Positions 17,786-45,124 are shown, counted from the first letter of the stretch. The stretch is DNA of 64,000 nt from Leptolyngbya sp. BL-A-14 (GCA_041937185.1 CP166621.1:2196571-2260570), one strand, 5' to 3'. Program-made: numbers and translations. Notes: generated by a model not told the origin, from the sequence alone.

Positions 17786-19312
17786 ATGGTGAAACAACGG
17801 CTTTTTCTTGGATCGGTTGCCTTTGGTCTTAGCTTTGGCATTAGCTTCCTGACAGGTCGTGATCTGGGTCGGGCGATCGCGTCAGGGGCAACGACAGCGG
17901 TGGTGTCAGTCGCGGCGGCGGCAGTCGTCGATCGACAGTACTACCAGCAGGCACATACACGCATCGCCGACCTTAAAAGCCATATTCACGCTTTGCAGCA
18001 ACGGCGCGCCGAAGCCTATCAAGCGTATATGCAGCTTGAAGCGGAGAGAGAACAGTTGGCAGCCAGTTTCCAAACCCTTGCGTTTGAGCCCCATCAGTCC
18101 CAATTTCCCCCTCAGCCCCAGTTTGGCAGCGTACAGCTTCCCAGAGCGCTTCCTGCGGCACGTAAAGCGCTGAGTTGGGATTTATCAGCTTCGGCTCAGG
18201 TTGAGCCCTCGATCGTCGTGAAGCCTTATGACCTGCCAACAGAGATTCCTGCTGAACGGCAATCGCCCTGGAATCAATCAGAAGGCGGGCCATCAGAGGG
18301 AGCAACGCCGCAGCAAGTCTTTTCTGAAGCAACTGCAACCAAGCAAAAAATTGAAGCCAGTCTTGCGGCACTTCAAGCTGAACTGAGCCAGATCAAAGGG
18401 CAAATTACCGACCATCGCCAAACGCGGGAAAAGCTCTCGCGGGATGTTGCCAATATCAGGGAAGAAAAACGTCAACTGGAAGCAACCGCCAAAACCCTGA
18501 AGGGCGAAGTGGAGGAATTAGAAACCTGTCGGGTTGAGCTAGAGCAGTTTTTGACTGATGCCGAGGCGAAGAAGCGAGAGCTAGAAACAGGTTCAAATCC
18601 CCTTCAAGAAGCCTTTAAGCAATTACAAACCCAGGTTGTTGCCTTACAAGAAGAACTGCGCGTTTTGGAAGCTCAAATTCTCGATCGTCGCAGCCAAAAA
18701 GAAGCGCTCGAACAACAGTTAGCCATGCTTGCCGCTGTTCCGTTAGATGCGCAAGGAGCCTTACAGCTTGAGTTAAACGGACAGCAACGAAGCGATAACA
18801 CAGCCACGAACGGCAATGGCAAGAACGCTAAGACTAACGATCCAATGGCGATCGCTCTTCAAACTGAGCGTTCAAAGCCAACCCCTCCATCCAAGCAACC
18901 TGTATTATCCCGCAAGCCTGCTGTCATCACAAAGCCAACAGACGAGCCCTCACTGTCGCGATCGACCCAGGCTGGAACAGCCACGCTTCCATCCAAGGCG
19001 GTTACTGCTGACCCAGCAACTGACCTGCCTCAGGAATGGGCAGACCTGATCATGCAATTGCCAGAATATGAGCTACAAGCGCTGAAGGTCATTGCCGAGC
19101 AGAACAACCCTGCTGCCGCACTTAAACAGCTTGCGGAAGATAATTTGACCATGCCAGAGCTATTGATTGACTCGATCAATGAACATGCCCTGGAAACGAT
19201 CGGCGACCTTCTGATTGATGCCAACGCTGGTGCAGGCTCAGCGACGATCGTCCGTGAGCATCTCAAGCAGGTGAAAAAGATCCTGAGAACGTATGACAAT
19301 CTGGCTCACTGA
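17786..19312 (+). CDS. membrane-anchored coiled-coil protein
   Basis: 508 aa; N-terminal TM segment, long heptad-like Q/E/L/A-rich coiled-coil region, globular C-terminus. Confidence 0.55.
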   Translation: MVKQRLFLGSVAFGLSFGISFLTGRDLGRAIASGATTAVVSVAAAAVVDRQYYQQAHTRIADLKSHIHALQQRRAEAYQAYMQLEAEREQLAASFQTLAFEPHQSQFPPQPQFGSVQLPRALPAARKALSWDLSASAQVEPSIVVKPYDLPTEIPAERQSPWNQSEGGPSEGATPQQVFSEATATKQKIEASLAALQAELSQIKGQITDHRQTREKLSRDVANIREEKRQLEATAKTLKGEVEELETCRVELEQFLTDAEAKKRELETGSNPLQEAFKQLQTQVVALQEELRVLEAQILDRRSQKEALEQQLAMLAAVPLDAQGALQLELNGQQRSDNTATNGNGKNAKTNDPMAIALQTERSKPTPPSKQPVLSRKPAVITKPTDEPSLSRSTQAGTATLPSKAVTADPATDLPQEWADLIMQLPEYELQALKVIAEQNNPAAALKQLAEDNLTMPELLIDSINEHALETIGDLLIDANAGAGSATIVREHLKQVKKILRTYDNLAH

Positions 19313-20421
19313 ATACACCTACCTTGAGTCAGGTTAGCCTCGCTTAGTGCTTAGTAGAAGATGATAAAGTGGTTTTTAGGAGATGGTTTAAGCCATAGAC
19401 AACAAAGAAATTGATGAGTCCGTTTGTCGGCTCATTATTGTGTAGTGGGAAATCTTTGCTCTCTGCGATTGGTAGAATCCATTCCCATCCTTTAAAGTCG
19501 GCTTTGAAGACATTGACTAACCCAATTGGTACAAATCTGGTCTTTCCGTCTGCTTTCCCCAAATTCTCAACTTGTGTAAAGATACTCTGTCAAAGAAGCC
19601 AACATAGTTTAACTCGCTTTTGACTTCTTGGATTTACAGAAATAGTTGTGTTGAAGGGGATCAACAAGGCACCGACAAGATGATGTGCGCTTTCCATTCC
19701 CCCAACGGCTCGTCATTTTTCCTCTTCTAGCACTAAAATAACGCGATGTGCTTGCTAGACTTAAACAGCTCTAGACTTAAACAGTTACAGTTAGTTCCTC
19801 AAACTGCGAAGGATTACTACTACAGCGGTTGAGCTATTGATAGGCGATGTGGTCAGCAGTTTACGCTCACTTTGCTTGTGAAGATTTAGTTGCACACCGC
19901 GTGATATACTTCGGTTCTTAATCGTTAGTTCTATTTGATAAAAGCTGTATACTCATTAGCGTTTCTCCGATGGATGAGATAGAGGTGGGAGGTGCAGGGC
20001 AGCGATTTGAGCCTCTGGGTGTACCTCACGCTAGCCGGAAACGCTATACACTTTTCTAAGCTTGTGTCTTTCAAAATGAGAAACCTGATTCATGAGATTT
20101 TGAGAGTTCCACCCTCTAATTTAAGATTTCTGTAAAAATAAGCTGCTTAAAGAAAAGTTCTAAATAGCTGTCTTAGGGCAGTTACTGCAAGGGATTTGCT
20201 TACTCTATTTTGCAAGTTGTTTAGTACCAACCAGTTACTAATTATAGTGGTAAACATATTGACTACAATTGTGGGTTATTTAGCTATGCATGCAACATAA
20301 CTAGAATTCAGAGCTTTAGCAGTTCCAACTGCTCACTTTTTATCTTTAAAGAGGTCTATTGTTCGTACTCAAGCCTTACCCTAGTTATGTGAAGTAATGA
20401 TTAGAAAAGTCGGGTCCTAGA

Positions 20422-21465
20422 ATGCTAGATAATAAAGTTCAGGGTGAGCCTAAATTAAAGGACAGCCAAAACAAAAAAAGAAAGCTAGTGATTCTCATTC
20501 CTATATTTAACGATTGGGAAGCACTAGAGGAGCTGTTGCTATTAATTGACGAAATCGGTACTCCGCAAGAATATAATTTGGAGATTCTTATAGTTGATGA
20601 TTACTCAACGAAACCTTTACCTGAATCACTAGCCTATCGAAAGTATCGGCAACTTCAAACCGTTAATATCCTTCGGTTACGTCGAAACCTTGGGCACCAG
20701 AGAGCCATTGCAGTTGGTTTATGTTACATACACGACAATTTAAGTTGTAGTGTAGTTGTCGTGATGGATGGTGATGGAGAAGACAATCCCTTCGAAATAG
20801 TGCGATTACTGGAAGCCCTCAACAGAAGTGTTGGTGATAGCATTATTTTTGCAAAGCGGAGTAAGCGGTCTGAAAACTGTACATTTAGATTATTTTATTT
20901 TGCGTATAAAATAATTTATTGGTTGCTTACAGGGCGAGATAGCAGCGTTGGCAATTTCAGTTTACTGCCGGGTTCCTTGTTAAGAAATATCGTGGTTATT
21001 TCAGAACTTTGGAATCATTATTCCGCAAGTATTTATCGTTCTAAAATCCCTTATATTGAAGTCAATGTTCCTCGATCAAAGCGATTGGCTGGACAACCTA
21101 AAATGAGCTTGGTATCCCTTGTGACCCATGGCTTGAGTTCGATAGCGGTATATGGGGATGTTGTTGGTACGAGAATCTTACTGAGTACGTCGTTTCTATC
21201 AGTCTTTCTTTTATTTCTACTGCTTATTGTTTTACTCATTAAGTTGTTTACAAATTGGGGAATTCCAGGGTGGACTACTTACGTTTCAGGCTTACTTATT
21301 CTAGCACTTTTCCAAGTGATCTTAATTGGAACTGTTTTCAGTATGATTATCTTGTCAGCCCGTAACAGTTCTAACTTCCTTCCAATTCGAGACTACAAAT
21401 ATTACGTTGATGGATTCTATACGGTGATTGCATGGAAGAGCTTACATACTCTGGAAAAGAATTGA
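20422..21465 (+). CDS. GT2 polyprenyl-phosphate glycosyltransferase (GtrB/DPM1-like) with C-terminal TM pair
   Basis: GT-A fold motifs (ILIPIFNDWE, IVDDYS, MDGDGED as the DxD motif, RNLGHQRAIAVG) plus two C-terminal TM helices typical of GtrB/ArnC-type enzymes; low-GC island. Confidence 0.8.
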   Translation: MLDNKVQGEPKLKDSQNKKRKLVILIPIFNDWEALEELLLLIDEIGTPQEYNLEILIVDDYSTKPLPESLAYRKYRQLQTVNILRLRRNLGHQRAIAVGLCYIHDNLSCSVVVVMDGDGEDNPFEIVRLLEALNRSVGDSIIFAKRSKRSENCTFRLFYFAYKIIYWLLTGRDSSVGNFSLLPGSLLRNIVVISELWNHYSASIYRSKIPYIEVNVPRSKRLAGQPKMSLVSLVTHGLSSIAVYGDVVGTRILLSTSFLSVFLLFLLLIVLLIKLFTNWGIPGWTTYVSGLLILALFQVILIGTVFSMIILSARNSSNFLPIRDYKYYVDGFYTVIAWKSLHTLEKN

Positions 21466-22145
21466 ATTTGTTTGCTGAGGCAAAGAATTGGAAAAGCTAT
21501 GTCAGGAATCACTTAAAGAACTATATCAAAGGAGATGTTTTAGAAGTTGGAGCAGGGATAGGAAGTAATACTTGTTCGCTTTCTTCCTGTTCCTACAGAA
21601 AATGGTTGTGTTTAGAGCCAGATCCTAACCTTTTCCAGAGTTTGGAGACAGAGATCAGTTCTTGCAGTATTGTTAACTGCTACGCTCAAAAAGGAACCAT
21701 TGATACATTAACTAACGAACAGATATTTGATTCCATTCTATATCTGGATGTTTTGGAACATATTTATGAGGATAGAGAAGAAGTTGCAAAGGTGATTAAG
21801 CATCTTAAAGCCAACGGGAACTTAATTATTTTAGCTCCTGCGCATCAATGGTTATTTACACCGTTTGATTCGGCTATTGGTCATTACCGTCGTTACAGTA
21901 AACTAACACTTGAGGCAGTTTTACCAGACAGTGTTGAAGTAACAAGGCTCATTTATATAGATAGCGTTGGCTTGCTAGCCAGTTTGGCAAATAAGTTACT
22001 TCTTAGGCAAAGCCAACCAACTCTACGGCAAATCAAGGTATGGGACAAAGTAATGGTACCTGTATCCAGTAAAACTGATGCGATTTTGGGATACCAACTT
22101 GGCAAAACAGTTTTACTGGTTGGAAAGAAAAAGGTTAGTAAATGA
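21432..22145 (+). CDS. class I SAM-dependent methyltransferase
   Basis: SAM-binding motif I VLEVGAGIGSNT, acidic motif II (LYLDVLEH); 34-nt overlap with the upstream GT2 gene suggests co-translation. Confidence 0.75.
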   Translation: MEELTYSGKELNLFAEAKNWKSYVRNHLKNYIKGDVLEVGAGIGSNTCSLSSCSYRKWLCLEPDPNLFQSLETEISSCSIVNCYAQKGTIDTLTNEQIFDSILYLDVLEHIYEDREEVAKVIKHLKANGNLIILAPAHQWLFTPFDSAIGHYRRYSKLTLEAVLPDSVEVTRLIYIDSVGLLASLANKLLLRQSQPTLRQIKVWDKVMVPVSSKTDAILGYQLGKTVLLVGKKKVSK

Positions 22146-22489
22146 TCTTAAAACTTCACCTTAGTGGTATTTTCCCATCTCAACCAGATCGCTATCCTTA
22201 GAGATCTTCTCAGCCTGTGATTATAAAATCCAAGCCTTTGCTCTACGCTCAGTTGGTATCTACTTGAATTTTATTTGTGAATGTTTTTTGTCTTAGGCCT
22301 TTGGTCTAAAAACAACATTTTATTAGAAAAATCAATTAAACCGCTTAAAAATTTTAGTAAGTACATTGGTCATGTTCACAAAAAATTAAGATATACCCCC
22401 TATTATTTATACAGTTGAAAAAAAGATTGGTTTTGATTGAAATTAACTACGGAGTTTAGCCAACCCACTTTTGAAGGTAAAAAGAGCCC

Positions 22490-24316
22490 ATGAAGTTGAG
22501 AGAATTTTCATTCCGTCAAGAGGTATTATTTGCCTCCATTCATAAGCTTATTGCTATCTGTATAGCCACTATTCCCATATTTTTACTTATACCTTTACTG
22601 GTAAAGAATGCAATCAATATGCCTTACTTGGATGAATGGGATACTCCAGGTATTGCACTGTTAAAGTTTGCTAGTAATACTCTTTCTTTTGGTGACCTAA
22701 TTGCTCAAGCTAACGAAAGCCGACCTCTATTTCCACGTTTAATATTTCTTGGGATGGCATTTTTGACAGGTTGGGATACAAGATATGAATTTTTGGTTAT
22801 CTTTCTTGTAGCCTGCTTGATCAGTTATCAAATATATCGTCTTAGTCAAATTACCATTCGAGGTTCTGAGTACCAGCGGCTTTTTTTAATGCTGCTTGCT
22901 AATCTACTTATTTTTAGCCCAGTTCAATCTGACAACTGGCTTTGGGGAATTCAGCTCATTACTTTTATGCCAATCACCTGTATTACAGCAGGGCTGCTTG
23001 TTTCTTACTCTAACTTGGGAACCAAGCTAAAGACACTGATTTTGCTAGGTTTGTGTACCATTAGCACTTATTCTTATGCTAATGGAATGCTTGCCTGGCT
23101 ACTTTTATTTCCAAGTGCTATCTTCACTTCTAGATTTTTCCAAAATCGAGATCTAAAAGATCAGCGATGGCTAATGTTTGGAGGGGTGATAGGTTGCGTT
23201 TCGAATGTAGTTGTTTACTTCCACAACTACAAGCAGCCTCCAGTTGCAAGCTTTTCAGAATCTTTAATTCACCCGCTTGAGGCTTTAAAATTCTTCTTAA
23301 TCTTCTTAGGTAACCCCTTAAAGAATGGTCAAATAGAAGCTTCCCAACAACTAGGAACTTCTCTGACTGTTGGCTTAGTTCTCTTTACCTTATTTAGTTG
23401 TGTCTTACTTTACCTACTGTCGAATAGGAAGGACAAAGCATTACTTTACTATTCAACACCCTGGGTCGTAATTGGAGGCTACTCTTGTGCAAGTGGGCTA
23501 ATTACAACGGTAGGCAGGCTCGGGTTGGGCTTAGAAGCAGCGCTCTCTTCACGATACCCAACATTCTCACTATATCTTCTTGTTTCTTTGATTTATCTCT
23601 TAGCGATTGTTGCTGAAAATATAATTCAGAACTATTACCTTCATGAAATCAAGAAAGTACGTATCATTCGAGGCGTTCTTGTTTCTTTAACAGCTTCTTT
23701 GATTGTACTTCATACTTCTACTTACTTGTCGCACGCTAAAACTATGGCACTGGACCATCGTTATCGACTTCATGCTAAAGCTTGCCTGTTATTTATAAAT
23801 TTTGTTGATGAGAAGCCGACTTTCGAAGCGCGCATTTATCCCTATTATGAAATTGGCAAACCTAAAATCATTCAGTTGAACCAAAATCATTTTTTGAAGC
23901 CAGCGTTGGTCGAAAGTCCTAATCTCTCTATCATTGAAGGCAAAAGAAAACAGTATCCTTCAGAAGCCTATGGTTTTTTGGACTCAATTACTCAAACCAG
24001 TGAATCAGAACTTTTGCTTTCCGGTTGGGCAGTCTTTCCCGACCGGAAAAAGCCTGCCGATGCTGTGATTTTGGCATACGAAACACCAAACAGCGCGCCG
24101 AAAGCGTTTGCGATCGCTCCTGTCATTGAAAAATCAAAGGATATTGTCAGAGTGTTCAAAGATCAAGCTTATCAGAATGTTCGTTGGAGTAAGTCTTTGG
24201 CAGTTAACAAGCTACCTGAAGGGGATATTAAAGTGAGTGCTTGGGCATTTGATACTGAAGCAAAGCAAGCATTTCGATTGGCGGGTTCAAAGAGCTTGAG
24301 TAAGCCACTTAAGTAA
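22490..24316 (+). CDS. polytopic membrane protein, candidate GT-C-type glycosyltransferase
   Basis: 608 aa; about 11-13 TM helices over the first 400 aa; YLDEWD acidic motif in the first predicted loop; roughly 200-aa soluble C-terminal domain. Confidence 0.6.
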   Translation: MKLREFSFRQEVLFASIHKLIAICIATIPIFLLIPLLVKNAINMPYLDEWDTPGIALLKFASNTLSFGDLIAQANESRPLFPRLIFLGMAFLTGWDTRYEFLVIFLVACLISYQIYRLSQITIRGSEYQRLFLMLLANLLIFSPVQSDNWLWGIQLITFMPITCITAGLLVSYSNLGTKLKTLILLGLCTISTYSYANGMLAWLLLFPSAIFTSRFFQNRDLKDQRWLMFGGVIGCVSNVVVYFHNYKQPPVASFSESLIHPLEALKFFLIFLGNPLKNGQIEASQQLGTSLTVGLVLFTLFSCVLLYLLSNRKDKALLYYSTPWVVIGGYSCASGLITTVGRLGLGLEAALSSRYPTFSLYLLVSLIYLLAIVAENIIQNYYLHEIKKVRIIRGVLVSLTASLIVLHTSTYLSHAKTMALDHRYRLHAKACLLFINFVDEKPTFEARIYPYYEIGKPKIIQLNQNHFLKPALVESPNLSIIEGKRKQYPSEAYGFLDSITQTSESELLLSGWAVFPDRKKPADAVILAYETPNSAPKAFAIAPVIEKSKDIVRVFKDQAYQNVRWSKSLAVNKLPEGDIKVSAWAFDTEAKQAFRLAGSKSLSKPLK

Positions 24317-24433
24317 CTGTTTACCAAGAGCACAATGAGCTGGAATAGCGTTGAGTTGTCGTGCCTGACTACCAAAAGAGTAATGAACGATTGCTTTAGG
24401 GTATGAGCCAGCCTTGTTTAAGCTAACTTCACA

Positions 24434-24976
24434 CTAGAGTGCTTGCCATACTTGTGCAACCGCGATCGTAACGGTACCTGATTGTTCTGCAATACGGTAG
24501 TGACACTTGGGAATATGGAGGATGGGCGTAGGGTGTCGAGCGTAGGAGGTGGAAAGGTCTGTTGGAAAGCTGTCTCCGCGCCTCTGCGTCTCTGCGTTGG
24601 CCTGATCGGCTCTCCTTTCTACTTCCTCCCAACAGGCCAAAAGCGCTGCGGCCTCAGCCACACTGGGAGTGCCAACTGCGCGGTCGATCGTACTAGACGG
24701 ATGGGGAACCGCCACTGATCGCAGCACCTCGGCAGAATAAAAAAAGAGAGGCAGGCTGTGATCGACACAAAATTCGATCAGACCTGCCTCATTTCTTTTT
24801 ATGTCAAGCGTTGCTATACCAGCGATCGCGCTTTCGGGTAGCAAGTGAGCGCTAAATACAGACCGCATCGCTTCTTCGATCAAGCTTTTTGGCGTATTCT
24901 TTTTACAACCAAGCCCAACCCAAAAGACCCTGGAGAGCAATTGCTTGTCGCATTCAGCGCTAGAGTTTGATACCAC
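24434..24976 (-). CDS. cobalamin biosynthesis protein CobE / CbiG C-terminal domain protein
   Basis: 180 aa; resembles the CobE/CbiG_C family (FWVGLGCKKNTP ... ATLDIKRNE). Confidence 0.55.
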   Translation of the reverse strand: MVSNSSAECDKQLLSRVFWVGLGCKKNTPKSLIEEAMRSVFSAHLLPESAIAGIATLDIKRNEAGLIEFCVDHSLPLFFYSAEVLRSVAVPHPSSTIDRAVGTPSVAEAAALLACWEEVERRADQANAETQRRGDSFPTDLSTSYARHPTPILHIPKCHYRIAEQSGTVTIAVAQVWQAL

Positions 24977-24979
24977 GCC

Positions 24980-26569
24980 CTAGCTTTTACGATCAGCATC
25001 AACCACAGGGGTTAACGCAGCCGCTTTGGGCGTACCAGCATCCTGACTTGCCGTTAAGGACAACTGTTGCAGGATGGGCGTTTGAGCCACCGCACTGTTC
25101 GTCAGCGCAAAGAGTGGATTTGAGAGAATGCCCGCCAACGACGTGACGATCGCGGTCATCACCAGCCCGAATTGGAGCGATCGCATACCGGGCAGGCTCC
25201 AGCTAATCGTAGGATAGTTCTTCACAGAATCAGACATTTCCTGCGGTTCTTTCACCACCATCATCTTGACCACACGGATGTAGTAGTAGATAGAGATGAC
25301 GCTAGTCACCAAGCCTAGCAAGACCAACCCATAGGCTCCCGCCTGCCAGCCGGCCCAAAACAGGTAGATTTTGCCGAAGAAGCCAACCAGTGGTGGAATG
25401 CCGCCCAACGACAGCAAGCATAAGCTCAGGCAAAGGGTTAACAGCGGGTCTTTCTGGTATAGACCAGCATATTCGCTAATTTGATCCGTTCCCGTCCGTA
25501 GGGAGAACAGAATGACCCCGATAAACGCCCCCAGGTTCATGAACAGGTAGGAGATCAGATAGAAGAGCAGACTGGCATAGCCCGCGTCACTGTCGATGAC
25601 CAAACCGATCATGACGAAGCCCGCTTGCCCAATGGAAGAATACGCCAGCAGACGCTTCATGCTTGTTTGAGCCAGTGCCACCACATTTCCTAGCACCAAG
25701 CTGAGTACTGCCAAGGCCGTCATGACCAGATGCCACTCTTCGGTGAGCAAGGGGAAGGCGGTCACTAACAACCGAATCGCCAGCGCGAACCCTGCTGCTT
25801 TTGAGCCCACTGAAAGGAATGCCACCACCGGGGTCGGCGCACCTTCGTAGACGTCTGGAGTCCATTGATGAAAGGGCACTGCGGCAATCTTGAAGGCGAT
25901 CCCCGCGATCGCAAAAACCAGTGCAATCACCAAACCCAAGGACTGCGTTGAGCCAGTAGCCGCAATTTGCGTAGCGATTGCGCTCAGCGTTGTTTCACCA
26001 CCCGACAAACCGTATAGGAGTGACAGCCCGTACAGAAAAATGGCAGAACTGGATGCTCCAATCAGCAAATACTTTAGCGACGCTTCATTTGAGCGGGGAT
26101 CACGCTTTGTATAGCCTGTTAGCAAGTATGACGAGATACTCAACGTCTCTAGCGACACGAAGATCATAACCAGTTCGTCTGCGCCAGAGAGAAACATCCC
26201 GCCGATCGTAGCTGTGAGTAGAATCGCTAAAAACTCTGCCAGAGAGGTGCCTGAGCGATCGATGTAGCTGATCGACATCAGAATTGTGACCACGGCTGAC
26301 AGCGCCACGATCCCTCGCAGGAGAACACTCAGCGCATCGCCGTTGAAGCTGCCCAAAAAGGAAATCGGGTTTGAGACATCCCACTGGTAATACAGCGCAA
26401 CCACAGCAGCCAGTAGCCCTGCGATCGAGACGTAGGGTGTCCAGCGCGAGGAGGCAGTTCGTCCCACAATCAAGTCACCCACAATGACGATCATGAGGGT
26501 GGTAATGACAATGCCTTCTGGCAGAATCGTCCCAGCGTTAAGCTGAGCAGCAAGCGTGGCGAAATCCAT
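24980..26569 (-). CDS. ndhB: NAD(P)H-quinone oxidoreductase subunit 2
   Basis: 529-aa polytopic protein; N-terminus [22 protein letters not shown] is characteristic of cyanobacterial NdhB. Confidence 0.92.
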
Positions 26570-33025: not shown

Positions 33026-33889
33026 ATGTGGAACCAAATTGCTGCACACATTAGTCAGGCCACAGGAACGCCCTTTCAAGGAAGCGATCGCCGCTCGGTG
33101 GGGGGCGGTTGTATCAATCAAGGCTATCGGCTAGCTGATGACAACATCGCCTATTTTGTCAAACTTAATCAAGCGTCAGAGCTTGGGATGTTTGAGGCCG
33201 AAGCGGTAGGGCTACAGCAAATGCAACAGACCGGCACCATTCGGGTGCCAACGCCTATCTGCTACGGCGCTGAAGGCGGCAGTGCTTACATTGTGCTGGA
33301 ATGGCTGACCTTGGGACGAGGTAATGAGCGATCGTGGCAGCTTATGGGCCAAAAGCTTGCAGCCCTGCATCAGGCGAATGTAGCCGACAAATTTGGGTGG
33401 GAGCGCAACAATACGATCGGCTCCACTACCCAAATCAACACCTGGACGGCTGATTGGATCACTTTTTGGGTAGAGCATCGGCTCAGCTACCAGCTCAAGC
33501 TTGCCGAGCGTCGGGGTGGTCACTTTCCCCTACAAAACCAACTGCTAGAAGCAGTGCCCCACCTGTTAGTAGGACACACACCGCAACCATCATTGGTGCA
33601 TGGTGATTTGTGGTCAGGCAATGCGGCTGTCACAGAGGCAGGTGAACCGGTTATTTTTGATCCAGCCACGTATGTGGGCGATCGAGAAGTTGATCTGGCG
33701 ATGACCGAACTCTTTGGTGGTTTTCCAGCCAGTTTCTATCAGGGATATAGCCAGGTCTTACCGATCGAGGAGGGCTATCAACAGCGCAAAACGCTCTACA
33801 ACCTCTATCACATTCTCAATCACTTCAATCTTTTTGGTGGCAGCTATGAAGCACAAGCCAATCGGATGATGAACCAACTGCTGAAGTAA
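33026..33889 (+). CDS. fructosamine kinase family protein (protein-ribulosamine 3-kinase-like)
   Basis: 287 aa; FN3K-family segments (YFVKLN, LVHGDLWSGN, FDPATYVGDREVDLAMTELFGGF). Confidence 0.85.
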   Translation: MWNQIAAHISQATGTPFQGSDRRSVGGGCINQGYRLADDNIAYFVKLNQASELGMFEAEAVGLQQMQQTGTIRVPTPICYGAEGGSAYIVLEWLTLGRGNERSWQLMGQKLAALHQANVADKFGWERNNTIGSTTQINTWTADWITFWVEHRLSYQLKLAERRGGHFPLQNQLLEAVPHLLVGHTPQPSLVHGDLWSGNAAVTEAGEPVIFDPATYVGDREVDLAMTELFGGFPASFYQGYSQVLPIEEGYQQRKTLYNLYHILNHFNLFGGSYEAQANRMMNQLLK

Positions 33890-35662
33890 GGTTCTTTTCT
33901 GAATTTGGTGATCAAGGTTTGGAGTGATATTTGGCTCGGCAGGAACCGTTTCAACTGGCTAAAAGCACCCTTTTTTGCAAAAGGTCAAAACCAGCCCGAC
34001 CGTACATTTGCCGCTTGAGCATCTTCAGCCGATTGATTTGCCCTTCCACTTGTCCATTGCTCACTGCTAACGTCACGCCTGCTTTGACCGCCTCATAATC
34101 CTCCTGCAAACTCTTGGCAAAGTTTTGAAACTGTTTGATCTTGCTGCAACTGGCTTGCTCCAGCCAGGGGTCAAGCTGCTGGGGCGACCGTTGTCGAACC
34201 AACGCCGCAAATTGCTGAGCGAGAGTAATCGCTGTTGCTAACGCAGGATGCTGCTGTAACTCGATAAGCAACGGTTCATCCTCAATGGCTTGCTGCTGGG
34301 ATGGTTTGAGTACCAGCCAGGCAGCGCGACGGGCACTCAAAGGGGGTTGCTTTGCTTCGCTGCCGGCAAGAGCTGGTCCTCGCCCCTCTGAGGTGCTTAA
34401 CTGTTGCCGTTGCGCTTGACGCAGTTGATGGGTATATTTGGCAACGGTTTGATAGGTCCCCTGATAGCCCTGCTGCTGAATGTCCTCAAACAATTGCTTC
34501 GTCTGACGTTGCCCAGTGTGCCATTGCTCGTATAAGTAGGATTTGTAGGGAGTCAGGATGCTAGGACGGGAACGCCGCCGTGGCGATGGCTGCCATTCGG
34601 GAAAACTGGGAGCCGCCAAGTAGGTAAAAACAGTCCGTTCACCCATGCCTAAATGATGTGCAATATCGAGTACCTGGTAGCCCTGCTGGCGCAGTTTGTG
34701 CACCTGCTCGTAGTTCGCCAATCGTCTTGCCCGCCGTTGCTGCGCTCGTTGTTGCTGCGCCGTTGGCGGTTTGGGTGGAACTACCAGCGGTTTGCCTAAG
34801 GCTCGATGATAAGCGAGGTCTACGACTTTGAGCGCATCACTTTGCGTGGCTAGAAAACGCTCTAGGACTTCCGCCAGATTTTGCAGCAGATGGAAGCGGT
34901 CAGCGACCTGAATCGCTGCCGGTGCGCCTTGCGTCATGCCTTGCTTGTACGCCTTGGAGCGATCTCGCGACAGCACTTGCACACCAGGATGCTGTTGGAG
35001 CCAGGCGGCTAAAGTGTTCGCTTCTCGATCTTTGAGCAACGCGATCGGGTGGTGCTGATCGAGGTCAACCAGGATCGTGCCGTAGCGTTGCCCCTTGCGA
35101 AAGGCGAAATCATCGACGCCTAAAGTTTTAGGGGTCGTCATTGTGGGTAAGGTTTGTCGTGCCACGAGTTGCAACAACGGATTGAGGCTAACCCTGTGCC
35201 CCAACCGTCGGCTCAAGCGGGTGCCGGCCGCGCCGCCTAAGGCGAGTCCAATGGCGGTCAAACAGGCTGCCAAACGGCAGGTGCGTCTTGCCCACGGCAG
35301 GGTGACTTGGGGTAAGCGCTCGGTGAAGATGCGCCGTTGGCAGCCAGCCTTGAGGCAGAAAAACTTCCGCACTTGCAGGCGCAGGGTAACGGTGTAATCG
35401 ATACAGGGCAGATCTTGTAGGGTTCGCTCATAGCGACTGTGAATGCGATGGGTTGCTGACTGGCACAGCGGACAGTGGGCAGCAGATTGGCTGCTTGAAA
35501 CCGTAAGAGTTAGTTGTTTATCGTTCGTAGCGAAGGACCAGTTTTCGAGTCGAAGTAATGCCTGATTCGGCAACAGATGGTGCAGGAAATCCACTACTGC
35601 TTAAGCGTGAAATAGGTACACCTTGATCCTGCCGTAAGATCACCAAATTCAGAAAAGAACCT
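33890..35662 (-). mobile_element. ISL3-family insertion sequence, apparently intact
   Basis: 24-bp perfect terminal inverted repeats GGTTCTTTTCTGAATTTGGTGATC (33890..33913 and reverse-complement 35639..35662); 8-bp direct repeat TGAAGTAA at 33882..33889 and 35663..35670; a single transposase ORF. Confidence 0.85.
33951..35594 (-). CDS. ISL3 family transposase
   Basis: N-terminal zinc-finger (CPLCQ ... HSRYER), DDE region, and ISL3-typical C-terminus NGQVEGQINRLKMLKRQMYGRAGFDLLQKRVLLAS. Confidence 0.9.
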   Translation of the reverse strand: MDFLHHLLPNQALLRLENWSFATNDKQLTLTVSSSQSAAHCPLCQSATHRIHSRYERTLQDLPCIDYTVTLRLQVRKFFCLKAGCQRRIFTERLPQVTLPWARRTCRLAACLTAIGLALGGAAGTRLSRRLGHRVSLNPLLQLVARQTLPTMTTPKTLGVDDFAFRKGQRYGTILVDLDQHHPIALLKDREANTLAAWLQQHPGVQVLSRDRSKAYKQGMTQGAPAAIQVADRFHLLQNLAEVLERFLATQSDALKVVDLAYHRALGKPLVVPPKPPTAQQQRAQQRRARRLANYEQVHKLRQQGYQVLDIAHHLGMGERTVFTYLAAPSFPEWQPSPRRRSRPSILTPYKSYLYEQWHTGQRQTKQLFEDIQQQGYQGTYQTVAKYTHQLRQAQRQQLSTSEGRGPALAGSEAKQPPLSARRAAWLVLKPSQQQAIEDEPLLIELQQHPALATAITLAQQFAALVRQRSPQQLDPWLEQASCSKIKQFQNFAKSLQEDYEAVKAGVTLAVSNGQVEGQINRLKMLKRQMYGRAGFDLLQKRVLLAS

Positions 35663-35864
35663 GAAGTAAGCCATTACTAGTTAACTGACAAATTTGTTGA
35701 CTGGCAAATTTAGCGTCGGTTGAGGTTATAGCGATAGCAAAAACCCAACACCAGGGGCTCTTTTATTGCATTACCCTGCGGGAAGCAAGCGACGTACAGC
35801 TCAGCCCAACCAACGGCAGGACAGGGGTTTCATGAGTTTTGTCAGTTAATCAGTCTTGGACAGT

Positions 35865-36386
35865 TTAAAGCATCAGCACTTGACAAGGCAGTTCTGACAT
35901 ACGTTCGGCTTCTTGAGACCAGGCTTCCGTAGAAAGCAGAACGCTAGATGTGTTCAATCGCACTGGATAGGGCGGTTCTTGTAACGAAAACGAGGAACCA
36001 TTTTTTTTCGTTTTTGCTTTGACTAAACTCACAATCCAGGGCAAAAAGGCTAACAGTTCTTCGGGTAAAACAGTCAACTCAAAATGCCAGCCTTGATTCA
36101 TGCCCTGATGCGGCTGATCACGCTTAAAGAAGGTGATGCCGCCAGCCCCTTTGTTAATTGCAACTCGGAGAATAAAAGGACGCTCTGCTAATAGATTGTC
36201 GGGTGCCGTGTGCGCGTAGATGCTGACATAATTGAGGTGCTCCTGCTCATCCACCCAAGACGCGATCGAGGAGCTTCTGTTGTATGAGCTACCGCTAATT
36301 TTTACAGGAACATTCATTGCGGTGGCGAACAACGTATAAAAGTCGCGTCGCAAATTTGAAACCATTTGTACTGCTTCAGGAGTCAT
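35865..36386 (-). CDS. hypothetical protein
   Basis: 173-aa ORF; no recognisable motif. Confidence 0.4.
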   Translation of the reverse strand: MTPEAVQMVSNLRRDFYTLFATAMNVPVKISGSSYNRSSSIASWVDEQEHLNYVSIYAHTAPDNLLAERPFILRVAINKGAGGITFFKRDQPHQGMNQGWHFELTVLPEELLAFLPWIVSLVKAKTKKNGSSFSLQEPPYPVRLNTSSVLLSTEAWSQEAERMSELPCQVLML

Positions 36387-36639
36387 ACATTACCTACGCC
36401 GCTTAAAAATTAAGATGATCGAATTGACGTTCGATCGACCTGGCTCACTAGGGAACTTTGCATGCTGGGGGTAGACGCGATCGAGATGCCCTTTACAAAT
36501 CCTATTGCTCCCAGAAATAGCCGCTTAAGGAGTTAACCGCCGTGATGCTTAAATACAAAATTCATAACTTTTGAGCAACACAACTTTAGCCCACTTGAGG
36601 CTGACTGCATGAAAGATTAAATCAATACAATCAAACTTG

Positions 36640-36686
36640 TTAAAAATAGTAGCCTGCTCCGTTTCAAGCATGAAAACTGGAGCAGG
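36640..36686 (-). terminator. intrinsic terminator downstream of rpsU
   Basis: Stem of about 10 bp (AGCCTGCTCC ... GGAGCAGGTT) followed on the minus strand by a U-rich tract (CUACUAUUUUUAAC). Confidence 0.6.
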
Positions 36687-36713
36687 TTTCTAACACAAAT
36701 AAGTACAGTGAGA

Positions 36714-36902
36714 TTAGTAACGAGAGCGCTGTCTACGTTGCTTGTGTTTAGCAATTGCCTTGCGCTTTTCCTTTTCCAGCGGCGTTTCAAAGTGCCGCTT
36801 TTTCCGCATATCTTGAAAGATTCCTGCCTTAGAAACCTGGCGTTTAAATCGTCGTAGAGCGGATTCAATGCCTTCGTTCTCGCCAACTACTATCTGGGTC
36901 AT
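36714..36902 (-). CDS. rpsU: 30S ribosomal protein S21
   Basis: 62 aa [48 protein letters not shown] matches S21. Confidence 0.9.
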
Positions 36903-37141
36903 GCTTTATCCTCCAATGGAACAGGTCGCTACAAGCTACTGGACGTTAGACCACGGACTGGAGGGAAAAGCTAAACAGGCATGTGCTTTTAACCTGTGGC
37001 GCGATTATCGTTTAGTCCATACTCATACATTCGTGAGTCTAAAGTCCAACGCTGAAGCGTAAACAAAAAGCCTCTGGCAGAGTGGAGCAGTTGCTTTTCA
37101 TCTGCCAGAGACTCTGAAAATTAAGCTTTAAGCATAACGCC

Positions 37142-37456
37142 TTAGTAGCGACGACCGCCGCCACCACCACTGCCACGGTTGTTTCCACCCCAACCGCCAG
37201 AAGAACCGCGTTCTTCACGGGGTTTTGCTTTGTTCACTTTTAAGTCACGTCCCATCCACTCAGCGCCGTCAAGGGCTTCAATGGCAGCCGCTTCTTCTTC
37301 TTCGGTGCCCATTTCTACAAAGGCAAACCCGCGCATGCGACCAGTTTCGCGATCGGTGGGTAGTTGAACTCGATTAACAGTACCGTACTCCTCAAAAGCT
37401 TGCTTCAGATCTTCCTGAGTAACCTGGTACGAAAGGTTACCGACGTAAATTGACAT
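37142..37456 (-). CDS. rbp: RRM-type RNA-binding protein with glycine-rich C-terminus
   Basis: RNP2 (IYVGNL) and RNP1 (RGFAFVEM) motifs; [18 protein letters not shown] tail; located just upstream of rpsU as in the known cyanobacterial rbp-rpsU arrangement. Confidence 0.88.
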
Positions 37457-37601
37457 GGAGTGTCTCCAAATTTCAGAGTGTGTGAGAGTTAAATTCGGAG
37501 AGACGCTTGTCACGGAACAAAAACGAATTACACAGCCGAAGATAATCCTGTAGGCAAACTATAGCACAGGGCTAAAAAACCGTTTTGCCAGCCCTTGTAG
37601 T

Positions 37602-38558
37602 CTATCGCAGAAACGGCAAAACCAGTTCTGCAACTTCAGTCGCGTATTCTTCGTGTAAGCCTAGCGACCCTGAAAGCCGTTCACTTTGCAGTTTAGGCTG
37701 TGCGGCCAGGGCGTCCATCTCAGCTTTAGAGGCAGCCGGTGAACGATCGCCAATCACAACCATCATCGGCATGTTTAAGCGTTGCAGCGGTTTAAGAAAA
37801 TCTTCACGTGTCGCAGCGGGGTCTAACGCACCAGTGACAAAGGCAGCAGGCGCAAACCTGGCACCTGGTTGCTGAGTAATGTGATATTTCTGATCAATAA
37901 AGTCTGGTGTCAGCATGTCTGGGTTGGTATAGACGTGCTGACGGTACATAAAACGTAGGAAAGACGGCAACGTATTGAGCTTGTAAAGCGTTTGACCCAG
38001 AATCGGCGTTCCAACGGTTTGCCTGATGGCGGCAAACCAGGGTTGCTGCTTACCCATCATGGTGGGCAATGGGCCGCGCCAGGTCGGAGCAACCAGCACT
38101 ATTTTCGACCAGAGGGTGTCGATCGCCCCCGCTTGCAAAACATAACCAGCTGCGTGCCCAGCCGCGATCACTGCAAGGGGACGATCGCATACATCGCTGA
38201 CAAATGCCTGCAAAAGCTGGTGGTAAACGTCTGGCTGGTAGGCGATCGCAGGACGTGCCGAATCGCCAAAGCCTAACCAATCCAACGCGATCACTTGAAA
38301 TTCAGATGCTAAGCGATCGGCTAAGCCACTCATCTCGCCTCTAGTAGAAACGGTGCTAAAGGCAGGCAGCAGCAAAACTTGATGTCCCTGTCCTCGCGTT
38401 TCGTACGCGATCGCAAATTCTTGCCCTTCATAACGCCATTGATACGTGTGAACAACACCACCAATCTGGGCCGAAATGGTCGGTGAGCGGTCAAGCGTGG
38501 AAGTCATATTAACGTTCCCACTGAGGGCTGTGAGTAACCTGACTATAGCATCAGCCAA
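37602..38558 (-). CDS. alpha/beta-fold hydrolase
   Basis: 318 aa; alpha/beta hydrolase topology with an HGxP-like oxyanion region (ALDWLGFGDS) and an AAGHAAG nucleophile-elbow-like segment. Confidence 0.65.
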   Translation of the reverse strand: MADAIVRLLTALSGNVNMTSTLDRSPTISAQIGGVVHTYQWRYEGQEFAIAYETRGQGHQVLLLPAFSTVSTRGEMSGLADRLASEFQVIALDWLGFGDSARPAIAYQPDVYHQLLQAFVSDVCDRPLAVIAAGHAAGYVLQAGAIDTLWSKIVLVAPTWRGPLPTMMGKQQPWFAAIRQTVGTPILGQTLYKLNTLPSFLRFMYRQHVYTNPDMLTPDFIDQKYHITQQPGARFAPAAFVTGALDPAATREDFLKPLQRLNMPMMVVIGDRSPAASKAEMDALAAQPKLQSERLSGSLGLHEEYATEVAELVLPFLR

Positions 38559-44826: not shown

Positions 44827-45124
44827 GGCAGCGCAAGCAGAACGACTGCTATGCCAGAAGAATAGTGGTCGAGCACCGGCAAAGAGGAGTAGCTTTTTGT
44901 TGCTCTCCTAGCCAATGTCAGCAGGAGTAGCAGGGGCGATCGTATGCGATGAAGCACGCTGCCCCTGTGACGGCGGAAGCGTTTGAAGCGATTGGGTGAC
45001 AACGGTGCACAACTAAGTTTTGTTTAAGTAAAGAAACAACCCCTCAATAGCCATGTATAGTACTCTTGCTCATTTGCCAATTTTGGGCGTTGCTTGAGTT
45101 CTCTAGCTATCGGGGTCAGCCTTC

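What the first reader, a model, noticed from the sequence alone, without database searches (positions are those of the whole stretch)
19313..24433. AT-rich, HIP1-free island carrying a three-gene lipid-carrier glycosylation cassette
The host sequence has GCGATCGC (HIP1) every few hundred bp and a GC content that by eye is around 55%. Between 19.3 and 24.4 kb the GC drops to what I judge by eye to be about 35-40%. HIP1 disappears except for one copy near 24.1 kb, and codon usage shifts to A/T-ending codons. The island encodes three co-oriented, partly overlapping genes: a GtrB/DPM1-like GT2 with a C-terminal TM pair, a class I SAM methyltransferase, and a 608-aa polytopic membrane protein. This mirrors Gtr-type three-component systems. 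In those, a cytoplasmic GT2 makes a polyprenyl-phosphate sugar and a GT-C transfers it to a periplasmic acceptor. Here there is an added methyltransferase and no GtrA flippase. About 1.1 kb of apparently non-coding AT-rich DNA, with small ORF fragments, sits upstream. This is a candidate horizontally acquired surface-glycan modification module of unknown specificity.
Basis: partly seen in the sequence, partly recalled or inferred. Interest (0 to 1): 0.72.

Follow-up and report, generated by a model that had tools for sequence, protein, structure and literature searches.

The report
Inserted sugar-decoration gene cassette in Leptolyngbya
A 5.1-kb AT-rich block was inserted between two housekeeping genes of a Leptolyngbya cyanobacterium, and it carries three genes that most likely load a sugar (possibly methylated) onto a membrane lipid carrier and attach it to a surface polysaccharide outside the cytoplasm; this is a variant of a well-known kind of system.

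Summary
Window 19313-24433 has 38.7% GC against 51.6% elsewhere, about 9 SD below any other 5.1-kb stretch. It has GC3 of about 0.35, one CGATCG against about 18 expected, and a single HIP1 site.

Five related genomes keep the flanking gene order (accC, DUF2459, TerB_C, then convergent cbiG, ndhB, topA). They have only 30-230 bp where the island sits, so it is a lineage-specific insertion. No integrase, tRNA, terminal repeats, plasmid or phage relatives were found.

The genes are:
- a GtrB/ArnC/DPMS-type polyprenyl-phosphate glycosyltransferase (GT2a);
- a class I SAM methyltransferase overlapping it;

GT2a and the methyltransferase form a conserved, overlapping pair across cyanobacteria. In other genomes the pair sits with GtrA flippases, with Wzm/Wzt O-polysaccharide exporters and with different large membrane partners.

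The 344-bp spacer holds a decayed 3' relic of a second GT2 ("GT2b"), the usual partner of this GT-C family, so the donor-making module was swapped.

Verdict: a Gtr-like periplasmic glycosylation cassette with a built-in methyltransferase and no flippase of its own. It is a new variant of a known kind. Sugar, acceptor and methylation step are unknown.

The parts
19313..24433 (.). The whole inserted AT-rich block, lying between the stop of the TerB_C-domain gene (19312) and the stop of the convergent cbiG-C gene (24434).
   Evidence: GC 0.387 against 0.516 elsewhere; 1 CGATCG against about 18 expected; 1 HIP1 site. The site is empty (30-230 bp) in five syntenic relatives, L005-L009.
19313..20420 (.). 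Orphan upstream DNA of 1.1 kb, GC 0.40, with no gene. Origin unknown. It presumably carries the cassette's promoter.
   Evidence: Only ORFs of 72 aa or less. No Pfam hit. Full HMMER scan of 1.8 billion representative proteins with the best ORF found only itself plus weak partial matches to long proteins that I did not follow up and judged uninformative. No Rfam family or tRNA. Not shared with the homologous cassette in L001/L002, whose DNA homology starts at 20421. Promoter-like hexamers are no more frequent than in shuffles.
20422..21465 (+). GT2a: a polyprenyl-phosphate glycosyltransferase of the GtrB/ArnC/DPMS type. It has a GT-A catalytic domain plus a C-terminal TM hairpin. It carries a 10-aa C-terminal extension relative to L001.
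   Evidence: PF00535, E 4.5e-12. Full-length but sub-threshold matches to PgfS and ArnC NCBIfam models. PDB matches: GtrB sll0501 (5EKP) residues 21-307, E 7e-14; ArnC E 2e-09; DPMS. The DGD motif (MDGDGED) aligns with GtrB DAD. TM segments at about 258-276 and 292-310. Homologues are 60-80% identical across cyanobacteria, and JGI names several 'polyisoprenyl-phosphate glycosyltransferase'. dN/dS 0.15 against L001.
21432..22145 (+). Class I SAM-dependent methyltransferase, soluble, overlapping GT2a by 34 nt. Its substrate is unknown.
   Evidence: Methyltransf_12/11/25 hits. LEVGAGIG motif invariant in 52 homologues. AF2 model pLDDT 90 with a Rossmann-type methyltransferase fold. Best Foldseek hits are uncharacterised or small-molecule methyltransferases, which gives no substrate information. 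Homologues are 50-80% identical, and GT2a lies immediately upstream in 7 of 7 intact contexts. dN/dS 0.12.
22171..22437 (+). Decayed relic of the last 90 or so codons of a second GT2 ('GT2b'), containing at least three in-frame stops. It lies inside the 344-bp spacer 22146-22489.
   Evidence: All four GT2b proteins (from L003, L004, L016, L018) hit this spot through their last residue by tblastn, at 35-41% identity. E is 1.3e-5 for L016 against the whole window and 2.8e-10 against the spacer alone. A 25-nt 96% match to the 3' end of L003 GT2b. The relic ends 52 nt before the GT-C start, close to the intact GT2b to GT-C spacing of 38-54 nt in L004, L016 and L018; L003 has 186 nt.
22490..24316 (+). 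MEM: a 608-aa GT-C-fold glycosyltransferase from a family not covered by Pfam. It has about 13 TM helices, a first outer loop with an invariant acidic motif, and a C-terminal β-sandwich.
22631..22642 (+). Codons for D48-E49-W50-D51, directly after TM1. This is the candidate catalytic acidic motif of the first extracytoplasmic loop.
   Evidence: D48 and W50 are invariant in 68 family members. The position after helix 17-40 comes from the model. The analogy with the loop-1 Asp/Glu of PMT, ArnT and PglB rests on established knowledge, not on a residue-level structural alignment.
23972..24298 (+). C-terminal β-sandwich domain (residues 495-603), possibly a carbohydrate-binding module for the acceptor glycan.
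24110..24117 (+). The only HIP1 site (GCGATCGC) in the island. It encodes Ala-Ile-Ala.
   Evidence: The homologous L001 sequence reads GCGATTGCA, the same amino acids, so the site differs from L001 by two synonymous changes.
24317..24433 (.). A 117-bp spacer between the GT-C stop and the cbiG stop. It contains the right-hand junction, whose exact position is not resolved.
   Evidence: Homology to L001 ends at 24312. No similarity to the intergenic DNA of relatives. No terminator-like site was found there.
17786..19312 (+). Left flank: host gene for a coiled-coil protein with a TerB_C domain. Not part of the cassette.
   Evidence: Orthologues of 58-69% identity in L005-L009 lie directly upstream of cbiG.
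24434..24976 (-). Right flank: host CbiG C-terminal-domain gene, followed by ndhB (24980-26569, minus strand). Not part of the cassette.

Best explanation
The block is a horizontally inserted, self-contained donor-plus-transferase cassette for extracytoplasmic glycosylation. It is a variant of the Gtr-type three-component systems.

Proposed mechanism:
1. GT2a, anchored by its C-terminal TM hairpin, transfers a sugar from a nucleotide sugar to polyprenyl (undecaprenyl) phosphate at the cytoplasmic face.
2. The overlapping methyltransferase methylates that sugar. Most likely this happens while the sugar is lipid-linked and still cytoplasmic, by analogy with ArnD and LgmC, which modify the Und-P-sugar before it is flipped.
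3. A flippase encoded elsewhere in the genome moves the lipid-linked sugar to the periplasmic face.
4. The GT-C-fold protein uses its loop-1 acidic motif to transfer the sugar onto a periplasmic acceptor. Its C-terminal β-sandwich holds the acceptor. The acceptor is most likely an O-antigen-like polysaccharide made by the ABC-transporter pathway.

The cassette arose by replacing the GT-C's original partner (GT2b) with the GT2a-methyltransferase module. It then entered this Leptolyngbya lineage between the TerB_C gene and cbiG.

What is shown: the insertion, the protein folds and families, the conserved gene linkage, the GT2b relic, and purifying selection.

What is inferred: the lipid carrier, the sugar, the step at which methylation occurs, the flippase acting in trans, and the acceptor.
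For: Insertion: the site is empty in five syntenic relatives, and composition is about 9 SD off.

GT2a: it aligns end to end with GtrB, ArnC and DPMS, including the TM hairpin.

Linkage:
- GT2a-MT-MEM in L001/L002 at a different chromosomal site, and in L012.
- GtrA-GT2a-MT-MEM-Wzm-Wzt(Wzt_C)-MT in L014.
- GT2a-MT-GtrA in L015.
- GT2a-MT next to a PMT_2 protein in L011, and next to an unrelated 637-aa membrane protein in L010.
- GT2b-MEM followed by a small EamA-type membrane protein, inside a Wzm/Wzt cluster, in Scytonema hofmannii.
- MEM family members beside RmlC/RmlD genes.

Other:
- More than 40 identical longest-contig lengths are shared between the top-120 GT2a and methyltransferase hit lists, a proxy for co-location.
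- GT2b relic in the spacer; the closest MEM relatives still carry intact GT2b.
- dN/dS 0.12-0.24 for all three genes.
- The three-component logic and GT-C features are as described in PMC11127046.
Against: - No flippase is present in the island or in the 64-kb window.
- No polysaccharide gene cluster is nearby in this genome, so the acceptor is guessed from other genomes.
- Nothing identifies the sugar.
- The methyltransferase fold search is uninformative about substrate. It could act on a nucleotide sugar, on the acceptor, or on something unrelated to the sugar.
- No promoter or terminator stands out, and expression is untested.
- No mobility gene, tRNA, target duplication, plasmid or phage relative explains how the block arrived.
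Confidence: 0.62

Rival explanations
1. The machinery is the same, but the acceptor is protein. The GT-C would be a PMT-like O-glycosyltransferase decorating Ser/Thr-rich regions of periplasmic, pilus, S-layer or membrane proteins, as in the streptococcal PgfS/GtrB-dependent systems.
Against: Family members elsewhere sit inside Wzm/Wzt and rhamnose-synthesis clusters. There is no sequence match to the PMT or PMT_2 families in any of 68 members. ALG12, AftB and ArnT score about as well as the PMTs. The PgfS match is far below its cut-off, 65 against 500 bits.
Confidence: 0.15
2. An ArnC/ArnT-like modification of lipid A or the LPS core. The sugar would be added to the lipid A-core rather than to a polymer, with the methyltransferase taking the place of the donor-tailoring enzyme (ArnD or LgmC).
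Against: The ArnC match is weaker than the GtrB match. There is no PMT_2/ArnT sequence signal. The association with O-polysaccharide exporters and the CBM-like C-terminal domain fit a polymer acceptor better.
Confidence: 0.08
3. The block is ancestral and was lost from the relatives. Its low GC would reflect a composition intrinsic to these genes rather than foreign origin.
For: The cassette is 8-13 GC points below its neighbours in every genome examined, including low-GC hosts, so low GC is not by itself a sign of recent arrival. No mobility signature is present.
Against: All five relatives, spanning several genera, lack it at a tightly conserved junction, which would require repeated clean deletions. 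The same triad sits at a different locus, beside uvrB, in L001. HIP1/CGATCG depletion shows that little of the host's sequence signature has accumulated. The 1.1-kb orphan DNA has the same foreign composition.
Confidence: 0.07
4. The cassette is a decaying or silent remnant with no present function in this strain.
For: It has no flippase or acceptor cluster of its own. It contains a pseudogene relic and 1.1 kb of orphan DNA. A visibly decayed GT2a-methyltransferase cassette exists elsewhere, in L013. The GT2a stop has shifted, giving a 10-aa extension.
Against: All three ORFs are intact. The window's GT-C retains all 28 invariant family residues, and the methyltransferase retains all 46. dN/dS is 0.12-0.24 against L001, although that measures the whole branch and not only the time since insertion.
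Confidence: 0.08

Closest known systems
Gtr (GtrA/GtrB/GtrC) O-antigen glucosylation operons of Salmonella and Shigella and their phages
   Same: A GtrB-type polyprenyl-phosphate GT2 with a TM hairpin, plus a polytopic GT-C-fold transferase, in one short co-oriented cassette. The cassette is horizontally acquired and low in GC. Homologous cyanobacterial cassettes include a GtrA-family gene. The comparison rests on PMC11127046 and on the title and abstract of PMC3688519; PMC3688519 was not read in full.
   Different: There is no gtrA in this island. A SAM methyltransferase overlaps the GT2 gene. The GT-C belongs to a family with no Pfam or PDB sequence relative. No phage context was found.
Klebsiella gmlABC and Citrobacter youngae ORF12-15 (GT136) side-chain systems, which modify ABC-transporter-dependent O-polysaccharides
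   Same: Relatives of this cassette lie beside Wzm/Wzt(Wzt_C) exporters and WbdD-like coiled-coil methyltransferases. The GT-C carries an extra extracytoplasmic β domain, like the CBM of ORF12 (PMC11127046).
   Different: The donor synthase here is a GtrB-type GT2, not a phosphoribosyl-transferase-type enzyme. No MATE or SMR flippase is present in the island. No sequence similarity to GT136 was tested or seen. gmlABC is cited from my own knowledge.
Arn (ArnC/ArnD/ArnE-F/ArnT), Bordetella Lgm and Francisella Flm/NaxD pathways
   Same: The architecture is a GT2 that makes a Und-P-sugar, an enzyme that tailors the lipid-linked sugar on the cytoplasmic face, and a GT-C that transfers it. This is the precedent for placing the methyltransferase at the lipid-linked stage (established knowledge; ArnC match).
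   Different: The tailoring enzyme here is a methyltransferase rather than a deformylase or deacetylase. The likely acceptor is a polymer rather than lipid A. The GT-C is not an ArnT/PMT_2 family member.
Haloferax volcanii Agl pathway (AglP methyltransferase, AglD/AglS/AglR)
   Same: A SAM methyltransferase acts on a lipid-linked sugar, and a Dol-P-sugar made by a GT2 is transferred outside the cell by a polytopic enzyme (my own knowledge; not tested here).
   Different: It is archaeal N-glycosylation. AglP acts on a dolichol-linked oligosaccharide, not on a polyprenyl-phosphate monosaccharide. No homology was examined.

Membership tests
Gtr-type three-component periplasmic glycosylation system | A GtrB-type GT2 polyprenyl-phosphate glycosyltransferase with a C-terminal TM hairpin | tested here: met
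   PF00535. Full-length alignment to GtrB 5EKP residues 21-307, ArnC and DPMS. Two TM segments at 258-310.
Gtr-type three-component periplasmic glycosylation system | A polytopic GT-C-fold transferase encoded alongside | tested here: met
Gtr-type three-component periplasmic glycosylation system | A small GtrA-family (PF04138) or SMR/EamA-type flippase in the operon | tested here: not met
   There is no such ORF in the island. tblastn with GtrA from L014 and L015 and with the small EamA protein from L004 finds nothing in the 64-kb window. A flippase is present in the homologous cassettes L014, L015 and L004.
Gtr-type three-component periplasmic glycosylation system | Transfer of a single sugar from a Und-P-sugar to an already exported glycan | not testable with these tools
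   This needs biochemistry or genetics.
GT-C glycosyltransferase superfamily (for the 608-aa protein) | 7-13 TM helices, with a first extracytoplasmic loop after TM1 that carries a conserved acidic residue | tested here: met
   About 13 helices in the model, with the N-terminus basic at K2, R4 and R9. D48 and W50 are invariant and E49 and D51 adjoin them. Topology is inferred from helix count, not measured.
GT-C glycosyltransferase superfamily (for the 608-aa protein) | Sequence membership in a curated GT-C family (PMT, PMT_2/ArnT, Emb, GT87, STT3 and others) | tested here: not met
   No Pfam or NCBIfam hit. None of 68 members hits a GT-C model at E<=1. The profile against PDB sequences finds nothing relevant. 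hhalign against the PMT_2 protein of L011 gives probability 1.3%. CAZy itself was not searched.
Polyprenyl-phosphate glycosyltransferases (PI-GT: GtrB/DPMS/ArnC) | A DXD metal-binding motif in a GT-A domain | tested here: met
   MDGDGED aligns with GtrB IDADLQD.
Class I SAM-dependent methyltransferases | A Rossmann-like fold with the glycine-rich SAM motif | tested here: met
   Methyltransf_12/11/25. LEVGAGIG invariant. Foldseek probability 1.00 to many class I methyltransferases. The substrate class is not resolved.
Genomic island (horizontally acquired DNA) | Atypical composition and absence from the syntenic site in relatives | tested here: met
   composition; empty site in 5 genomes.
Genomic island (horizontally acquired DNA) | Mobility hallmarks: integrase or transposase, tRNA target, flanking direct or inverted repeats | tested here: not met
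   No tRNA. No convincing border repeats. No transposase or integrase remnant in the 1.1-kb orphan DNA. No plasmid or viral relatives.

The most novel reading that the evidence does not exclude
The conserved, overlapping GT2a-methyltransferase pair is a dedicated factory for a methylated polyprenyl-phosphate sugar. The methyl group would be installed on the lipid-linked monosaccharide before flipping. Interchangeable GT-C partners would then deliver an O-methyl sugar to surface glycans from outside the cytoplasm. These partners include this family, which is not covered by Pfam and is a candidate for a new CAZy GT family. Methylation of the lipid-linked donor within a bacterial three-component system has not, to my knowledge, been described. 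It could explain some of the O-methyl sugars typical of cyanobacterial LPS and sheaths. The GT2b relic would record a natural swap of the donor module feeding the same GT-C.
Probability: 0.3. Interest if true: 0.6.

Novelty: new variant of a known kind. Interest (0 to 1): 0.45.

Why it matters
Periplasmic side-chain glycosylation is a main source of surface-antigen diversity and of phage-receptor variation. It has been worked out almost entirely in enteric bacteria, mycobacteria and Gram-positives. This cassette gives three things.

1. A clean, datable example of such a module entering a cyanobacterial chromosome, with an empty-site control.
2. A widespread cyanobacterial GT2-methyltransferase donor module whose chemistry is unknown and easy to test in vitro.
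3. A GT-C family of several hundred members with no curated model. Its members sit in O-polysaccharide clusters of Trichodesmium, Okeania, Scytonema, Phormidium and others.

The GT2b relic shows that the donor-making and transfer modules are exchanged independently, which is relevant to glycoengineering. None of this overturns current understanding. It extends a known scheme.

Tried and rejected
- Rfam (gathering thresholds) and ARAGORN over the whole window found nothing.
- The repeat search across the island borders gave only short chance-level matches, with no target-site duplication or terminal inverted repeats.
- Six-frame reading of the 1.1-kb upstream DNA found only small ORFs. Pfam at E<=10 found nothing. 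A full HMMER scan of 1.8 billion representatives with the 81-aa best frame found only itself plus weak partial matches to long proteins that I did not follow up and judged uninformative. I therefore could not identify a mobile-element remnant.
- Intergenic DNA from the relatives does not align to either island border, so the exact junctions are unresolved.
- The promoter/terminator scan was no better than shuffles.
- PLSDB plasmids (DNA and protein modes) and IMG/VR gave no relative of the cassette or the GT-C. The viral methyltransferase hits are generic, 35-37% identity over 63 aa. A phage or plasmid vehicle is therefore unsupported.
- hhalign of the GT-C family profile against the two other membrane partners of GT2a-methyltransferase (the PMT_2 protein of L011 and the 637-aa protein of L010) showed no relationship.
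- The fold search of the methyltransferase model returned generic class I enzymes: uncharacterised proteins, alkaloid N-methyltransferases, prenyl-diphosphate C-methyltransferases and RebM. It gives no substrate inference.
- I considered reading the Asn aligned with GtrB's Asp (the GDF motif) as an active-site anomaly. I dropped this because, from memory, other PI-GTs also vary at that position and GT2b has Val there.
- The HIP1 gap alone is not decisive, because a second 5.2-kb gap exists around an ISL3 transposase.
- Literature searches for a GT2-methyltransferase-GT-C system or for this strain's glycans found no description.

Full report
**Source and observation.** The 608-aa protein is 100% identical to a hypothetical protein of Leptolyngbya sp. 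BL-A-14, on a 7.19-Mb contig.

- The block 19313-24433 has 38.7% GC against 51.6% for the rest of the window. Non-overlapping 5.1-kb windows have mean 0.517, sd 0.0146 and minimum 0.487, and the global minimum starts at 19301.
- GC3 of the three genes is 0.34-0.35 against 0.50-0.63 in neighbouring genes.
- HIP1 (GCGATCGC) occurs 61 times against about 1 expected, roughly once per kb.
- The 5262-bp HIP1 gap from 18848 to 24110 is the longest in the window, but a 5158-bp gap at 33084-38242 nearly equals it. The better statistic is CGATCG: 204 copies in the window and 1 in the island, against about 18 expected.
The contrast is real and large.

**It is an insertion.** The TerB_C-domain protein on the left flank was used to fetch the orthologous locus from GTDB species representatives. 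Five genomes were recovered: Lyngbya sp. HA4199-MV5, Stenomitos rutilans, S. frigidus ULC18, Leptolyngbya sp. FACHB-321 and one MAG.

- All five keep accC, DUF2459 and TerB_C, then convergent cbiG-C, ndhB and topA. Protein identity to the window is 46-97%.
- TerB_C and cbiG are separated by only about 30-230 bp.
- None has any match to the three island proteins.
- The block has no tRNA, no border repeats, no recognisable recombinase remnant, and no relatives on PLSDB plasmids or in IMG/VR. How it arrived is unknown.

**Extent of the conserved cassette.** DNA homology to the nearest homologous cassette (L001/L002, metagenomic, from a host of about 52% GC rich in HIP1) runs from 20421 to 24312. 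Identity is 80% over GT2 and the methyltransferase and 76% over the membrane gene. The conserved unit is therefore the three genes. The 1.1 kb upstream (19313-20420, GC 0.40) matches nothing.

**Low GC is a general property of the cassette.** In L001 the triad lies beside uvrB, which is a different site, and is again 39% GC and HIP1-free among 52% GC genes. In every other genome examined the cassette is 8-13 GC points below its neighbours. Low GC is therefore not, on its own, evidence of recent transfer. Here the empty-site comparison carries the argument. The lone HIP1 at 24110 encodes Ala-Ile-Ala, and L001 has GCGATTGCA at that spot, two synonymous differences.

**GT2a (20422-21465).**
- It has PF00535 and full-length but sub-threshold matches to the PgfS and ArnC models.
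- phmmer aligns residues 15-305 with Synechocystis GtrB sll0501 (5EKP; E 7e-14). The alignment includes the DXD motif (DGD against DAD) and both TM helices. ArnC and DPMS follow.
- It is a polyprenyl-phosphate glycosyltransferase. Homologues of 60-80% identity are common in cyanobacteria.

**Methyltransferase (21432-22145).**
- It is a class I SAM enzyme.
- It is unusually conserved, 50-80% identity across cyanobacterial orders.
- In all seven intact contexts examined it directly follows GT2a. The overlap is 4 nt (the coordinates fit an ATGA overlap; the sequence itself was not checked) in L001, L010, L011, L012, L014 and L015, and 34 nt here because GT2a has a 10-aa extension.
- Fold comparison gives only generic class I methyltransferases, so its substrate is not identified.

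**Membrane protein (22490-24316).**
- It has no Pfam, NCBIfam or PDB sequence match.
- None of 68 family members hits any GT-C model at E<=1, and the family profile finds nothing relevant in the PDB.
- With a 68-sequence alignment, AlphaFold gives pLDDT 93 and pTM 0.91. The model has about 13 TM helices, a structured first loop and a C-terminal β-sandwich at residues 495-603.
- D48 and W50 are invariant. They lie in the sequence D-E-W-D right after TM1, where GT-C enzymes carry their catalytic acidic residues (established knowledge).
- Invariant aromatics in the β domain (W513, Y530, W566) fit a carbohydrate-binding role like the CBM of GT136 ORF12 (PMC11127046). This is an inference.

**Context in other genomes.**

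| Locus | Source | Gene order |
|---|---|---|
| L014 | Microcoleaceae | GtrA(PF04138)-GT2a-MT-MEM(742 aa)-Wzm-Wzt(Wzt_C)-methyltransferase |
| L015 | Leptolyngbya sp. AN02str | GT2a-MT-GtrA |
| L012 | Leptolyngbyaceae | GT2a-MT, then three MEM paralogues interleaved with RmlC, RmlD and a sugar nucleotidyltransferase |
| L011 | Nostoc sp. KVJ3 | PMT_2-type membrane protein-GT2a-MT |
| L010 | Pleurocapsa sp. PCC 7327 | GT2a-MT followed by an unrelated 637-aa membrane protein |
| L004 | Scytonema hofmannii PCC 7110 | Wzm-Wzt-coiled-coil MT-multidomain GT2s-GT2b-MEM-small EamA-type membrane protein |

GT2a-MT therefore behaves as a donor-making module that pairs with interchangeable large membrane partners. 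The MEM family is tied to ABC-transporter-type O-polysaccharide loci. This is the logic of three-component periplasmic glycosylation (PMC11127046).

**A displaced partner.**
- The closest MEM relatives outside the window/L001 pair (56-63% identity: L003, L016, L018) are preceded directly by a different GT2, 'GT2b' (311-319 aa). GT2b is 27-29% identical to GT2a. These loci have no methyltransferase in between.
- In the window, the 344-bp spacer between the methyltransferase and MEM contains a frame with at least three stops. That frame matches the last 90 or so residues of all four GT2b proteins through their final residue, at 35-41% identity. E is 1.3e-5 against the whole window and 2.8e-10 against the spacer. 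There is also a 25-nt 96% match to the 3' end of L003 GT2b.
- The relic ends 52 nt before the MEM start, close to the 38-54 nt spacing seen in L004, L016 and L018; L003 has 186 nt.
- The simplest reading is that GT2a-MT replaced most of GT2b upstream of an existing GT2b-MEM pair. In L001 the relic is almost erased.

**State of the genes.** All three ORFs are intact. The window's proteins retain every invariant family residue. dN/dS against L001 is 0.15, 0.12 and 0.24, with dS about 0.8-0.9. This indicates purifying selection along the branch, though not specifically since the insertion.

**What is missing.**
- No GtrA or EamA-type gene is in the island or the window.
- No polysaccharide cluster is in the window. 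Its other genes are mainly housekeeping or regulatory, apart from the mobile-element genes and unannotated ORFs listed under noticed in passing.
- A flippase and the acceptor pathway must be encoded elsewhere in the 7.19-Mb genome, which I could not inspect.

**Mechanism and confidence.** I take the cassette to be a Gtr-like module.
1. GT2a loads a sugar on polyprenyl phosphate.
2. The methyltransferase methylates it. I favour the lipid-linked stage, by analogy with ArnD, LgmC and AglP, with roughly one-in-three confidence for that specific step.
3. A flippase acting in trans exports it.
4. The GT-C attaches it to an O-antigen-like polymer.

Rivals are a protein acceptor (PMT-like), a lipid A/core acceptor (Arn-like), ancestral presence with loss elsewhere, and a silent remnant. 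All are less well supported.

**Novelty.** The kind of system is well known. The integrated, widely conserved methyltransferase, the GT-C family without a curated model and the module-swap relic make it a new variant rather than a new kind. Literature searches found no description of such a triad.

Noticed in passing
window 33084-38242: A second HIP1-free stretch of 5158 bp, nearly as long as the island's. It contains an ISL3-family transposase (33951-35594, minus strand) and an orphan 173-aa ORF (35865-36386, minus strand). GC dips to 0.45 at 36-37 kb. It is probably an IS element plus cargo.
   Followed up: partly
window 45125-47368 (+): A 747-aa ORF with no Pfam match, in a region of about 46% GC, partly within a 3.9-kb HIP1 gap (42421-46316). 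It may be another foreign segment.
   Followed up: no
window 49116-51052 (-): A large serine recombinase (Resolvase, Recombinase and Zn_ribbon_recom domains) overlaps a GNAT acetyltransferase gene by 4 nt. The composition is native and HIP1-rich.
   Followed up: no
window 56163-57398 (-): An unrelated 411-aa GT2/GT21-type glycosyltransferase with native GC. It is the only other glycosyltransferase in the window.
   Followed up: no
L001-L004, L010-L012, L014, L015 (cassette genes against their flanks): The GT2-(methyltransferase)-GT-C genes are 8-13 GC points below neighbouring genes in every genome, including hosts of about 42% GC where the cassette drops to 28-34%. The cause of this persistently low GC is unexplained. 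Candidates are a shared low-GC gene pool, selection, or the composition of membrane proteins.
   Followed up: partly
L013 3376-6705: A visibly decayed GT2a-methyltransferase cassette: GT2 split into fragments, a DDE_3 transposase fragment, and several Uma2 endonuclease genes around it. The intact methyltransferase sequence is recorded in 61 blocks of the contig collection (23 contigs read).
   Followed up: no
L012 2940-9770: Three paralogous members of the GT-C family (588, 597 and 589 aa) lie in one cluster with RmlC, RmlD, a nucleotidyltransferase, a GT2 and a GT4. This suggests several different side-chain additions to one rhamnose-containing polymer.
   Followed up: no
L014 6761-8989: This 742-aa family member carries a second copy of the C-terminal β-sandwich domain, 25% identical to the window's residues of about 495-605. 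The 709-747-aa members in the hit list may do the same (not checked).
   Followed up: partly
L001 4397-5323: A 308-aa ORF with no Pfam hit and 35% GC lies among genes of about 52% GC, 3 kb from the cassette in that contig. It is another small AT-rich insertion.
   Followed up: no
window 21432-21465: GT2a here is 10 aa longer at its C-terminus than its L001 orthologue. This gives a 34-nt overlap with the methyltransferase gene instead of the 4-nt overlap seen in the six other loci.
   Followed up: partly
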